The position numbers and the translations under genes were made by a program. DNA of 16,482 bases from a virus. Taxonomy: Duplodnaviria > Heunggongvirae > Uroviricota > Caudoviricetes. The stretch lies in IMG/VR virus record IMGVR_UViG_2671180460_000014. The stretch is one strand, 5' to 3'. Each line of letters begins with the position of its first letter. Position 1 is the first letter of the stretch. Positions 555-2,224 of the stretch are shown here, piece by piece. The notes under the pieces are model-generated. The model did not search any database, had not been told where the DNA came from, and was given only the letters and a program-made list of their open reading frames with translations.

Positions 555-958
555 TGATGTCCGATAATCTGTTCGATCAGGCCATGAGTGATGCGGATGA
601 CATCATCCTGGAGACGATGGGGACGGAAATCAGCATATATCCGGGGGGCACGGAAAGAAAAATCCGTGCTGTTTTTGATGCCCCGGCAGATAACACCGGG
701 ATGAACACTGGCAGCGGCGAAATTCGTGATACTGCACCGGTGTTATTTACCCGGAGCGCATGGGTTGCCGGACTGAAAAAATATGACAGGGTCATGATCC
801 ACGGCGAACCCTACCAGGTGGTCGATCCTGGCTGGGATGAGTCAGGCACTGCGGGTCATGGTGTGATTACCATTACTCTTGCGCGGGGAGAACCCGGAAG
901 AAGTACACCTGCCGCCCCCGTCCGACCGAGTAAACGTTATGACAGTCAGAGAGCATGA
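554..958 (+). CDS. Lambda FII-like head-tail joining (head completion) protein
   Basis: The DNLFD...MGT...IR.VFD.P pattern matches lambda gpFII from memory. The start overlaps the FI stop (GTG 551 / ATG 554 / ATG 557 all possible). Confidence 0.65.
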   Translation: MMSDNLFDQAMSDADDIILETMGTEISIYPGGTERKIRAVFDAPADNTGMNTGSGEIRDTAPVLFTRSAWVAGLKKYDRVMIHGEPYQVVDPGWDESGTAGHGVITITLARGEPGRSTPAAPVRPSKRYDSQRA

Positions 959-1661
959 ACGAAGCACTGTCCGGCAGCGACGGCTGGCACGAAACCTCGT
1001 CGTCGATATTGACGAGGATGATGTGCTGAAAATTATCGCTAAACTGGGTGGTTCAAAAAGCCAGATCCGTAAAGCCTGGGGCGTGGCGCTGAAAAGAGCC
1101 GCGTCCGCACTGCGGATGAAGGCCATGGCAGAGTTTAAAAAACAGGTTGCGCCACGCAGCCAGAAAATGATCAAAAAACGTGTCCTGAATGCTTTTATCA
1201 TTCGTCGAAATGGCGATGAGTTTGATGAGGTAAAGGTGTGGTTCGGCCTGAACGCTATCAAAGTGCGTGATCTGCGCGGACGCATCAGTGGGGGGCGACG
1301 CGGTGAACGCCATCAGCTGCGTGATGAACGGGGGCGTTTTGCACCGGCTTCCCGTCGCAGGAAAGCGCCGGAGATACGTTTTAAGCCCGCCGGGGAGGCA
1401 ATACCGGTCACCACCTGGTCAGGTGACGAGGCTTTTGTTAATGAGTTTGAGTCTGAAAACCGGCGCGGACGCATTTCACGACGTAAGACGGTACTGGTCC
1501 GGCAGGCATCCGGACGACGAAGGGTGCGCGAAGCGGAAATTGATATTTATGAAGCCATGCTGAACCGTATAGAGGATTTTGTTTTCCCTGATGCGGAAGC
1601 ACTGATCCTGAAAAATTTTGAGCATGAACTGAAATTCCGGGTATTTAAGGGGATGGAATGA
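939..1661 (+). CDS. Hypothetical basic phage structural protein at the head-tail module boundary (possible neck or tail-completion protein)
   Basis: ATG at 939 overlaps the FII-like stop by 20 nt; the stop overlaps the next start (ATGATGG). The protein is very Arg/Lys-rich and I do not recognise a family. Confidence 0.55.
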   Translation: MTVREHERSTVRQRRLARNLVVDIDEDDVLKIIAKLGGSKSQIRKAWGVALKRAASALRMKAMAEFKKQVAPRSQKMIKKRVLNAFIIRRNGDEFDEVKVWFGLNAIKVRDLRGRISGGRRGERHQLRDERGRFAPASRRRKAPEIRFKPAGEAIPVTTWSGDEAFVNEFESENRRGRISRRKTVLVRQASGRRRVREAEIDIYEAMLNRIEDFVFPDAEALILKNFEHELKFRVFKGME

Positions 1662-2224
1662 TGGAACCATTGATGATGGGAACCTGGCATCAGGCAGTGA
1701 TTGACAGTCTGAAACAAATTCCCTGGGTGGAAGATGCCGATGAGTACCCGGAAAAAGTGACGCAACTGGTGACGCCTGCCGTGTTTGTGGATGTACCCGG
1801 CTGGGACAAGGCTCAGTTTGCCGACGGGCAGACACGGGTCACGCTGAAATGCGATCTGTTTGTGGTGACTGATCGGGCCGGAAAGACGGAAAACGTGCCA
1901 AAACCGCAGATATTTGCCCGCTGTCTGGCAATGGATTTATCTGACTGGATTGATGGAGCCACGTTCGGGCTGGATAACGTTGATCCGGCGGTTTTTATTG
2001 ATGCTGAGGTGGATACCTTCGACCGGCTGCTGGACGACTACATCGTTTTCCGTGTCTCTTTTGAACAGGACATTCCGGTCGGCGAAGATCCGTTTGCGGC
2101 TCCGGCAGGTGTGCCGTTACAGGAAGTCTGGCTGGGTAAAGTACCGGAAACCGGTAAAAAGCATGTGCAGGATTATCGTCTTATCTGGAAAGCGGAGGGC
2201 ACCGGCGATGAGTCTGGCGGATGA
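1658..2224 (+). CDS. Hypothetical phage tail-associated protein (possible tail completion/terminator)
   Basis: ATG at 1658 overlaps the upstream stop, and its stop overlaps the gpV start by 17 nt. It occupies the position that R/S tail-completion genes hold upstream of V in P2. Family not recognised. Confidence 0.55.
   Translation: MMEPLMMGTWHQAVIDSLKQIPWVEDADEYPEKVTQLVTPAVFVDVPGWDKAQFADGQTRVTLKCDLFVVTDRAGKTENVPKPQIFARCLAMDLSDWIDGATFGLDNVDPAVFIDAEVDTFDRLLDDYIVFRVSFEQDIPVGEDPFAAPAGVPLQEVWLGKVPETGKKHVQDYRLIWKAEGTGDESGG

What the first reader, a model, noticed from the sequence alone, without database searches (positions are those of the whole stretch)
939..2224. Two unclassified proteins sit exactly at the seam between a lambda-type head module and a P2-type tail module
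Upstream are FI/FII-like head-completion genes; downstream the tail starts with gpV. The two genes between them (a 240-aa highly basic protein and a 188-aa protein) are translationally coupled to both sides, and I cannot place either in a known family. In a head/tail hybrid, the proteins that join an FII-type head completion protein to a contractile-tail terminator are the least predictable parts, so these are candidate adaptor or tail-completion proteins.
Basis: inference. Interest (0 to 1): 0.55.

Follow-up and report, generated by a model that had tools for sequence, protein, structure and literature searches.

The report
Two ordinary phage neck proteins

Summary
Two overlapping + strand genes lie at 939-1661 (240 aa, pI 11.0) and 1658-2224 (188 aa, pI 4.25), between FI/FII-like genes and a P2-type gpV. 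Neither hits Pfam or NCBIfam directly, and RefSeq calls both hypothetical.

Both can still be placed.
- **188-aa protein: tail terminator.** Its family profile hits the R2 pyocin collar PA0615 (PDB 6u5f, E 1e-33). A confident AlphaFold model (pLDDT 92) matches PA0615, the phage Mu terminator, then lambda gpU, T5 p142 and T4 gp15.

The order FII, Z-like, terminator, gpV recurs in 6 deposited phage records (isolated phages from 4 host genera plus Wolbachia WO) and 41 of 44 Pseudomonas loci. A headless R-pyocin locus keeps only terminator and gpV. This is therefore an old conserved neck cassette, not an unusual seam. These are new members of known families, of low interest.

The parts
557..958 (+). 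FII-like head-tail joining (stopper, Hc1) protein, 133 aa. Context: the head-side partner onto which the tail terminator docks.
   Evidence: Pfam Phage_attach E 3.3e-13. PHROG 82 'head closure Hc1' E 3.3e-29. NCBIfam tail_join_FII E 3.5e-06.
939..1661 (+). Tail completion protein (TCP / Neck1) of the lambda gpZ family, 240 aa, pI 11.0. It carries an Arg-rich, low-confidence stretch (about residues 115-200) that is absent or much shorter in the Ralstonia phiRSP and Wolbachia WO homologues.
1658..2224 (+). Tail terminator protein (TrP, 'collar') of the R2-pyocin PA0615 / phage Mu gp37 type, 188 aa, pI 4.25.
   Evidence: PHROG 1072, labelled unknown function, E 3.7e-51. There are 359 relatives among the 50% representatives. 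Of 130 relatives, 4 match Pfam Phage_Mu_Gp37 and 3 match PF23840 Phage_tail_terminator. The family profile hits PDB 6u5f_A 'Collar PA0615' at E 1.2e-33. hhalign of the 9 close homologues against PA0615 gives 93.2%; the 130-sequence alignment gives 99.7%. The AF2 model has pLDDT 92.2. Foldseek order: 6u5f_A, 6u5j_A, Mu terminator 9khy_1, A-1(L) gp7, monocin cap, T5 p142, lambda gpU, T4 gp15.
2208..2831 (+). gpV baseplate spike, 207 aa. Context: first gene of the P2 / R-pyocin-type tail block. It is always immediately downstream of the terminator gene in related loci.
   Evidence: TIGR01644 phage_P2_V E 2.2e-22. Terminator-gpV adjacency was seen in every related locus long enough to show it, including the R-pyocin locus L010.

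Best explanation
The two genes encode the tail-side half of a standard long-tailed-phage neck.

**188-aa acidic protein: tail terminator.**
- By analogy with PA0615 in the R2 pyocin and gp37 in phage Mu, six copies form a ring.
- The ring caps the last tube hexamer. A C-terminal extension is expected to tether the last sheath ring by beta-strand exchange.
- This stops tail growth and provides the surface onto which the FII-type stopper of the DNA-filled head docks.

**240-aa basic protein: gpZ-family tail completion protein.**
- By analogy with the only located member (80alpha gp51) and with lambda gpZ genetics, one or a few copies are added last.
- It would sit inside the neck or tube lumen, between the end of the packaged DNA and the N-termini of the tape measure protein.
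- It would position the DNA end so that particles are infectious.

**Shown here:** family and fold membership, gene order, and conservation of the cassette.

**Inferred from relatives:** stoichiometry, location, and the contacts with FII, sheath, tape measure and DNA.
For: **Terminator.**
- The family profile hits PA0615 at E 1.2e-33.
- hhalign against PA0615 gives 93% from the 9 close homologues alone and 99.7% from the 130-sequence alignment.
- The model has pLDDT 92. Its best Foldseek matches are all tail terminators or collars, led by PA0615 (TM 0.64/0.71) and the Mu terminator.
- Cryo-EM of Mu shows gp37 as a hexamer capping tube and sheath, with a C-terminal beta-hairpin bound to the sheath (PMC11915804). 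The diffocin collar does the same (PMC11329794).

**Tail completion protein.**
- PHROG 27 at E 3.9e-26, the PHROG of lambda gpZ.
- A two-step profile chain reaches PF06763 proteins.
- hhalign against lambda gpZ gives 83.7%, specific relative to six other neck proteins.
- pI is 11.0, against 12.0 for gpZ.
- The gene lies between the stopper (Hc1) gene and the terminator gene. This is the position used in the literature to recognise these proteins (PMC4362835, PMC11784142, PMC11099176).
- 80alpha gp51 lies in the neck lumen, caps the DNA end and binds the tape measure protein (PMC11661146).

**Context.**
- FII, Z-like, terminator, gpV are adjacent in the window, in L001, in five isolated-phage records and Wolbachia WO, and in 41 of 44 Pseudomonas loci.
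- L020, the one Pseudomonas locus examined in detail, carries a full lambda-type head module.
- The headless R-pyocin locus L010 keeps terminator and gpV but has no FII-like or Z-like ORF. That is the pattern expected if the terminator serves the tail itself, while FII and Z serve head joining and DNA.
Against: - Neither protein reaches any Pfam or NCBIfam model directly.
- Pairwise BLASTP of the 240-aa protein against lambda gpZ finds nothing.
- A profile of only 20 close homologues against single reference sequences also finds nothing.
- hhalign of the terminator family against Mu gp37 by sequence is weak, 11-14%. That link rests on fold and on Pfam hits of a few intermediates.
- The location of tail completion proteins is not settled. 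T5 p143 was placed at the tail tip. gpZ, Mu G and P2 gpS were not seen in virion maps (PMC11784142, PMC11915804, bioRxiv 10.64898/2026.09.14.750843).
- No virion proteomics or complex model was available here.
Confidence: 0.82

Rival explanations
1. Division of labour as in the older reading of T4 (gp3/gp15) and P2 (gpR/gpS). The 188-aa protein would cap only the tube. The 240-aa protein would be an external sheath terminator ring rather than a lumenal DNA/tape-measure connector.
For: Older genetics describe P2 gpS, a Neck1/TCP-superfamily protein, as a sheath terminator (summarised in PMC11784142). The 240-aa protein is larger than typical tail completion proteins and has an extra beta region.
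Against: In the two closest solved systems, one hexamer (PA0615 or Mu gp37) caps both tube and sheath. The P2 virion map shows only gpR at the neck. The R-pyocin locus has a sheath but no Z-like gene. The 240-aa profile is specific for gpZ and gives under 1% for gpS and Mu G.
Confidence: 0.08
2. The 240-aa protein is a tail completion protein by descent but acts elsewhere in the virion. For example it could be a single copy at the tail tip or baseplate like T5 p143, or only an assembly factor that is absent from mature particles.
For: T5 p143 was fitted at the tail tip, and the authors question whether these proteins form one functional family (PMC11784142). The long disordered Arg-rich insertion could serve another interaction.
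Confidence: 0.08
3. One or both genes are non-structural passengers, such as a basic nucleic-acid-binding regulator or a moron, that happen to lie at a module junction.
For: There are no direct Pfam or NCBIfam hits. The 240-aa protein is very basic.
Against: All profile and fold evidence points to neck proteins. The position is invariant between FII and gpV, with overlapping reading frames, across very distant hosts. No non-structural family was hit.
Confidence: 0.02

Closest known systems
R2 pyocin collar protein PA0615 (PDB 6u5f, 6u5j)
   Same: It is homologous by profile: E 1.2e-33, hhalign 93-99.7%. It is the best fold match, TM 0.64/0.71. Length is similar (171 against 188 aa). The alignment runs through the conserved C-terminal G-x-x-H-x-x-D-Y motif. 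The gene lies directly upstream of gpV in both.
   Different: Identity is only about 19% in the structural alignment. The pyocin has no head, so PA0615 caps a free tail. Here the ring must also dock an FII-type stopper, and it is preceded by FII-like and Z-like genes that the pyocin locus lacks.
Phage Mu tail terminator gp37 (PDB 9khy, 9lj8; Pfam PF08873)
   Same: It is the third-best fold match. Four distant relatives of the 188-aa protein match PF08873. Length is similar (182 aa). It has the same role in a simple contractile tail, capping tube and sheath (PMC11915804).
   Different: The sequence link is weak, hhalign 11-14%. Mu has no stopper, so gp37 docks directly on the adaptor gp36. Here an FII-type stopper is present.
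Lambda gpU (PDB 3fz2, 3fzb, 8iyd)
   Same: It has the same core fold, Foldseek E about 3e-4 and TM up to 0.72 on the target. It occupies the same gene position, two genes after FII, and binds the same kind of partner (FII).
   Different: There is no significant sequence similarity. gpU is 131 aa and lacks the C-terminal extension that myophage and tailocin terminators use to hold the sheath (PMC11915804).
Lambda gpZ (Pfam PF06763 Minor_tail_Z, PHROG 27), the prototype tail completion protein
   Same: Both fall in PHROG 27. hhalign gives 83.7% over 154 columns. Both are very basic, pI 11.0 and 12.0. Both lie directly after FII and before the terminator. The secondary-structure order is the same: N-terminal long helix, beta region, C-terminal helices (described for gpZ models in PMC11661146).
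   Different: There is no pairwise similarity and no direct PF06763 hit. This protein is 48 residues longer, with an extra N-terminal segment and an Arg-rich insertion. It works with a contractile rather than a non-contractile tail.
80alpha / SaPI1 tail completion protein gp51 (PDB 9mu2 chain P; HK97 gp10 family)
   Different: It is half the size and only 6% identical. The match is weak and the model is low-confidence. 80alpha is a headful-packaging siphophage.
P2 gpR (terminator) and gpS (tail completion protein)
   Same: They are the functional counterparts in the phage whose tail genes V-W-J-I-H, FI-FII-E-T-U-X-D this window otherwise resembles.
   Different: There is no detectable sequence relationship to either window protein; hhalign is under 1%. 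This tail module therefore does not use P2's own completion genes.

Membership tests
Tail terminator proteins (TrP) of the PA0615 / Mu gp37 / gpU fold | Significant sequence-profile match to a structurally characterised terminator | tested here: met
   The A3 profile hits 6u5f_A PA0615 at E 1.2e-33. hhalign against PA0615 gives 93.2% for A1 (9 close homologues) and 99.7% for A3.
Tail terminator proteins (TrP) of the PA0615 / Mu gp37 / gpU fold | Terminator fold | tested here: met
   The model has pLDDT 92.2. The top 20 or so Foldseek hits are terminators or collars of pyocin, Mu, A-1(L), monocin, T5, lambda, SaPI1 and T4.
Tail terminator proteins (TrP) of the PA0615 / Mu gp37 / gpU fold | Direct hit of the window protein to Pfam PF08873 (Phage_Mu_Gp37) or PF23840 (Phage_tail_terminator) | tested here: not met
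   There is no Pfam hit for the window protein at E <= 0.1. Only 4 and 3 of 130 relatives match these models. The protein belongs to a sister family that Pfam does not cover.
Tail terminator proteins (TrP) of the PA0615 / Mu gp37 / gpU fold | C-terminal extension that binds the last sheath ring (myophage and tailocin type) | tested here: inconclusive
   The protein is 57 aa longer than gpU. It aligns with PA0615 to that protein's C-terminus, including the conserved G..H..DY motif. No complex with sheath could be modelled.
Tail terminator proteins (TrP) of the PA0615 / Mu gp37 / gpU fold | Hexameric ring on top of tube and sheath in the virion; loss gives over-long tails | not testable with these tools
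   This needs cryo-EM, or a knockout examined by electron microscopy.
Tail completion proteins (TCP / Neck1), lambda gpZ family (PF06763, PHROG 27) | Significant match to a family profile that contains gpZ | tested here: met
   PHROG 27 at E 3.9e-26 over residues 15-239. Lambda gpZ scores 3.2e-69 on the same PHROG. hhalign of the iterated profile against gpZ gives 83.7%, E 8e-6.
Tail completion proteins (TCP / Neck1), lambda gpZ family (PF06763, PHROG 27) | Direct hit to Pfam PF06763 Minor_tail_Z | tested here: not met
   There is no hit for the window protein. One of 20 close homologues hits at E 0.021. The link is transitive only: the A2 profile hits PF06763-annotated P0254 and P0226 at 5e-18 and 7e-17, and four members of A4 hit PF06763 with a best E of 1.2e-12.
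Tail completion proteins (TCP / Neck1), lambda gpZ family (PF06763, PHROG 27) | Gene located between the head-closure (Hc1/FII) gene and the terminator gene | tested here: met
   This holds in the window and in 47 related loci.
Tail completion proteins (TCP / Neck1), lambda gpZ family (PF06763, PHROG 27) | TCP fold: long N-terminal helix, beta hairpin or domain, C-terminal helix | tested here: inconclusive
Tail completion proteins (TCP / Neck1), lambda gpZ family (PF06763, PHROG 27) | Tail-associated and required for infectivity or head-tail joining | not testable with these tools
   This needs virion proteomics and a knockout.
P2 gpR / gpS tail completion genes | Sequence similarity to gpR (PHROG 65) or gpS (PHROG 26) | tested here: not met
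   PHROG scans put the window proteins in PHROGs 27 and 1072, not 26 or 65. hhalign is under 1%.

The most novel reading that the evidence does not exclude
The gpZ-type protein, with its lineage-specific Arg-rich insertion of roughly 80 residues, may be a lumenal plug that links the DNA end to the tape measure protein inside a contractile tail. No tail completion protein has yet been located in any myophage map. This E. coli prophage lineage has lambda-type neck parts and a minimal pyocin-type tail, so it would be a tractable system in which to locate one. A related reading is that R-type pyocins descend from this lambda-head / P2-tail lineage rather than from P2-like phages proper. They would have kept the PA0615-type terminator and lost the FII-like and Z-like genes.
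Probability: 0.3. Interest if true: 0.4.

Novelty: new member of a known kind. Interest (0 to 1): 0.2.

Why it matters
The practical value is mostly in annotation.
- PHROG 1072 (labelled unknown function), RefSeq 'hypothetical protein' WP_057698241 and its relatives can be named tail terminator. There are 359 clusters of relatives at 50% identity.
- WP_057698217 and its relatives can be named gpZ-like tail completion protein.

The result also shows that an FII-type stopper can pair with a PA0615-type terminator on a contractile tail. The cassette FII, Z-like, terminator, gpV is a stable unit found across Alpha-, Beta- and Gammaproteobacteria. The comparison with the R-pyocin locus gives an indirect argument about function. 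The terminator is a tail-intrinsic part, while the gpZ-like protein is tied to head or DNA functions. None of this overturns current understanding.

Tried and rejected
**Searches that gave nothing for the two proteins**
- Direct Pfam and NCBIfam scans.
- phmmer of each protein against PDB sequences: nothing for the 240-aa protein, chance hits to a transporter for the 188-aa protein.
- The A2 profile against PDB sequences: only low-complexity or designed-repeat noise.
- Megablast of window 1-3300 against the phage collection: no match.

**Comparisons that were too weak to use**
- hhalign of the small family alignments against single lambda Z, lambda U, P2 R and P2 S sequences was not significant.
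- A1 against Mu gp37 gave only a hint, E 0.002 and 14%.
- BLASTP of the 240-aa protein against lambda gpZ found nothing.
- Foldseek of the low-confidence 240-aa model found nothing below E 1.6.

**Tool failures**
- The same tool with the 188-aa protein alone found no relative among the one-per-species genomes.

**Ideas rejected**
- That the two genes are P2 gpR/gpS equivalents by descent: no sequence signal.
- That the junction is a recent recombination seam: the same four-gene order recurs across distant hosts, and 76 E. coli genomes cover at least 80% of window 1-3300; each of the 10 best does so as a single aligned piece.
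Full report
**1. What is in the sequence**

The window is the late (head-end and tail) region of an E. coli prophage. Window 1-3300 is 98.7% identical to strain C5 (NZ_CP010122). It is found in 105 of 5,426 complete E. coli genomes, and 76 of these cover at least 80% of it.

The genes on the + strand run in this order:
- FI (168-554) and FII-like (557-958)
- a 240-aa ORF (939-1661) and a 188-aa ORF (1658-2224)
- gpV (2208-2831), then W, J, I, the fibre and its chaperones
- sheath, tube, E/E', tape measure, U, X and D

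The junctions either side of the two ORFs, and the one between them, are overlaps of 20 nt, 4 nt (ATGA) and 17 nt. The 240-aa protein has pI 11.0 and the 188-aa protein pI 4.25. RefSeq annotates both as hypothetical. Neither reaches any Pfam or NCBIfam model.

**2. The 188-aa protein is a tail terminator**

- *Sequence relatives.* PHROGs places it in PHROG 1072, labelled 'unknown function' (E 3.7e-51). A word-indexed search gave only 10 close relatives.
- A profile of nine of these relatives, scored against 1.84 billion representatives, found 359 relatives. Of 130 full-length relatives, four match Pfam Phage_Mu_Gp37 and three match PF23840 Phage_tail_terminator.
- *Link to a solved structure.* The 130-sequence profile hits one solved structure, the R2 pyocin 'Collar PA0615' (6u5f_A). 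The E-value is 1.2e-33, over essentially the full length. Using only the nine close homologues, hhalign against PA0615 still gives 93.2%.
- *Fold.* AlphaFold2 with the 130-sequence alignment gave a confident model, pLDDT 92.2. Foldseek against the PDB ranks hits in this order:
  - the pyocin collar, pre- and post-contraction
  - the phage Mu terminator (9khy)
  - the cyanophage A-1(L) gp7 terminator, the monocin cap and Listeria antigen B
  - T5 p142, lambda gpU, STM4215, T4 gp15 and the diffocin collar
- *What relatives do.* In Mu, gp37 forms a hexamer that caps both tube and sheath. Its C-terminal beta-hairpin follows the sheath during contraction (PMC11915804). The diffocin collar binds the tube with its N-terminal domain and the sheath by a C-terminal strand 'handshake' (PMC11329794).
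- *Not a gpR or gpU homologue by sequence.* There is no detectable sequence similarity to P2 gpR. Similarity to lambda gpU is not significant (hhalign 0.7-10%).

**3. The 240-aa protein is a gpZ-family tail completion protein**

- *PHROG.* It matches PHROG 27, 'tail completion or Neck1 protein', at E 3.9e-26 over residues 15-239. Lambda gpZ falls in the same PHROG at E 3.2e-69. P2 gpS and Mu G fall in PHROG 26.
- *Direct tests fail.* BLASTP against gpZ, Pfam and small-profile hhalign all give nothing.
- *A chain of profiles connects it.*
  - A profile of enterobacterial homologues alone (A2) scores the Vibrio Valp1 protein at 3e-39 and the Ralstonia phiRSP protein at 2e-23.
  - A second iteration, run without any Wolbachia seed, reaches the PF06763-annotated Wolbachia WO 'minor tail protein Z' proteins at 1e-12 to 1e-5.
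  - The resulting profile aligns with lambda gpZ over 154 columns at 83.7% probability, E 8e-6. P2 gpS, Mu G, lambda gpU, P2 gpR, Mu gp36 and Mu gp37 all score under 1%.
- *Structure evidence is weak.*
  - The AlphaFold model has pLDDT 60.5 and is disordered over about residues 116-171 and 180-203. It does show confident N-terminal helices, a beta region and two C-terminal helices.
  - Foldseek found nothing.
- *The basic character.* Alignment A4 shows that much of it comes from an Arg-rich insertion. The Ralstonia phiRSP and Wolbachia WO homologues lack it or have a much shorter version.

**4. Context: a conserved cassette, not an odd seam**

- *Deposited phage records.* Both proteins have adjacent homologues in Hafnia phage yong2, Citrobacter phage Chris1, Vibrio phage Valp1, Escherichia phages vB_EcoM-569R10 and relatives, and Wolbachia WO. 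I inspected all but Chris1 locus by locus; in each the order is [FII], Z-like, terminator, gpV, and no FII-like ORF was detected in the WO or phiRSP loci.
- *Ralstonia phiRSP.* The terminator homologue there is an unannotated ORF, L008:5533-6108, which scores 1.3e-58 on the family profile.
- *Pseudomonas genomes.* A genome scan seeded with PA0615 returned 44 loci.
  - HMMs for FII, Z-like, terminator and gpV found Z-like, terminator and gpV adjacent in 41 of them.
  - The one examined in detail, P. chlororaphis L020, is a full prophage. It has lambda-type terminase, portal, protease, gpD, gpE and FII directly upstream.
- *R-pyocin locus.* The R-pyocin locus of P. paraeruginosa (L010) is the informative exception. 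It runs trpE, prtR-like repressor, holin, PA0615 homologue, gpV. It has no FII-like or Z-like ORF.
- *Where PA0615 homologues occur.* In the phage collection they are found in this lambda-head / P2-tail lineage. Examples are ECO1230-10, ep3, Bas97, Mica, phiRSP, Arya and WO. None of the 30 listed records (of 41 matching) is a P2-like phage.
- *Literature.* Lopes et al. (PMC4362835) had already noted a myophage with a gpW + Hc1 + Tc1 neck. They also noted the usual gene order Hc1-Ne1-Tc1.

The order FII, Z-like, terminator is lambda's own FII-Z-U with a different terminator subtype. The only family-level boundary lies between the two genes of the finding.

**5. Mechanism (inferred from relatives)**

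- The tail polymerises from the baseplate until a hexamer of the 188-aa terminator caps tube and sheath.
- The gpZ-like protein is added last. In 80alpha one copy sits in the neck lumen. It stacks on the DNA end and forms a beta-sheet with the three tape-measure N-termini (PMC11661146).
- Lambda particles made without gpZ look normal but are about 500-fold less infectious.
- The FII ring of the filled head then docks on the terminator ring.
- The pyocin comparison fits this split. The tail-only machine keeps the terminator and has lost FII and Z.

Caveats:
- The location of tail completion proteins is not settled. T5 p143 sits at the tail tip.
- gpZ, Mu G and P2 gpS were not seen in published maps.
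- Nothing here tests stoichiometry or contacts.

**6. Verdict**

It is wrong in implying that they cannot be placed or that they sit at an unusual seam. Both are divergent new members of known families, and curated libraries currently miss or mislabel them. Interest is low, about 0.2. The modest points of interest are:
- the annotation fix;
- a gpZ-type tail completion protein paired with a contractile tail;
- the hint that the R-pyocin collar comes from this lineage.

Noticed in passing
L001:2001-4955 (E. coli C5, about 12-14 kb upstream of the region homologous to the window): The homologous prophage in strain C5 carries a Mu-type transposase, a MuB-like AAA ATPase and a DUF3164 gene. These lie next to a lambda-type terminase, portal and head module and the P2/pyocin-type tail. 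A transposable-phage replication module combined with a lambda-type packaging and head module would be an unusual three-way mosaic, if it is all one prophage.
   Followed up: no
L010:5374-7067, compared with L012-L053: The R-pyocin locus (trpE, prtR-like repressor, holin, PA0615 homologue, gpV) has no FII-like or Z-like ORF. In 41 of the 44 Pseudomonas loci fetched, the PA0615 homologue lies between a Z-like gene and gpV; the one locus examined in detail (L020) is a prophage with a lambda-type head. Among deposited phages, PA0615 homologues occur in this hybrid lineage, and none of the 30 listed records (of 41 matching) is a P2-like phage. This suggests that R-pyocins derive from this lineage.
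   Followed up: partly
L008:5533-6108 (Ralstonia phage phiRSP, MH252365 about 26706-27281): An unannotated 192-codon ORF lies between the 'minor tail protein' (Z-like) and baseplate V genes. It is a clear tail terminator homologue, E 1.3e-58 on the family profile (feature 'none').
   Followed up: yes
window 1658-1673: RefSeq (strain C5, WP_057698241) starts the terminator gene at the ATG equivalent to window 1673. The N-terminal alignment with homologues, the upstream AAGGGG motif and the ATGA stop/start overlap support 1658 or 1661 instead.
   Followed up: partly
PHROG 490 and PHROG 1072 (library annotation): PHROG 490, which holds Mu gp37, is labelled 'portal protein'. The Mu record repeats this label. 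Cryo-EM shows gp37 is the tail terminator. PHROG 1072, which holds this window's terminator, is labelled 'unknown function'.
   Followed up: yes
window 5935-6462 and 6490-7023: Two tandem tail-fibre assembly (Caudo_TAP-like) genes of 175 and 177 aa follow the fibre gene. The otherwise near-identical C5 prophage has only one annotated at that position.
   Followed up: no
window 12982-16482: After gpD there is a 474-aa ORF whose C5 counterpart is annotated 'prophage tail fiber N-terminal domain' and a 198-aa ORF. An ORF that looks like an MFS transporter, by reading its sequence only (not scanned), runs off the window end (15199-16482). From memory it resembles E. coli ydfJ, the Qin prophage insertion site; this was not tested. 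In C5 the sequence after gpD differs: it is a second, inverted tail cluster. The right prophage boundary is therefore mosaic.
   Followed up: no
window 9067-9575: The ORFs between tube and tape measure correspond to the P2 E/E' tail chaperone position. The mechanical ORFs listed there (GTG starts at 9067 and 9357) translate to Arg/Cys-rich sequence that is unlikely to be real. The real frame is probably the ATG ORF at 9131-9433, plus a frameshifted extension.
   Followed up: no
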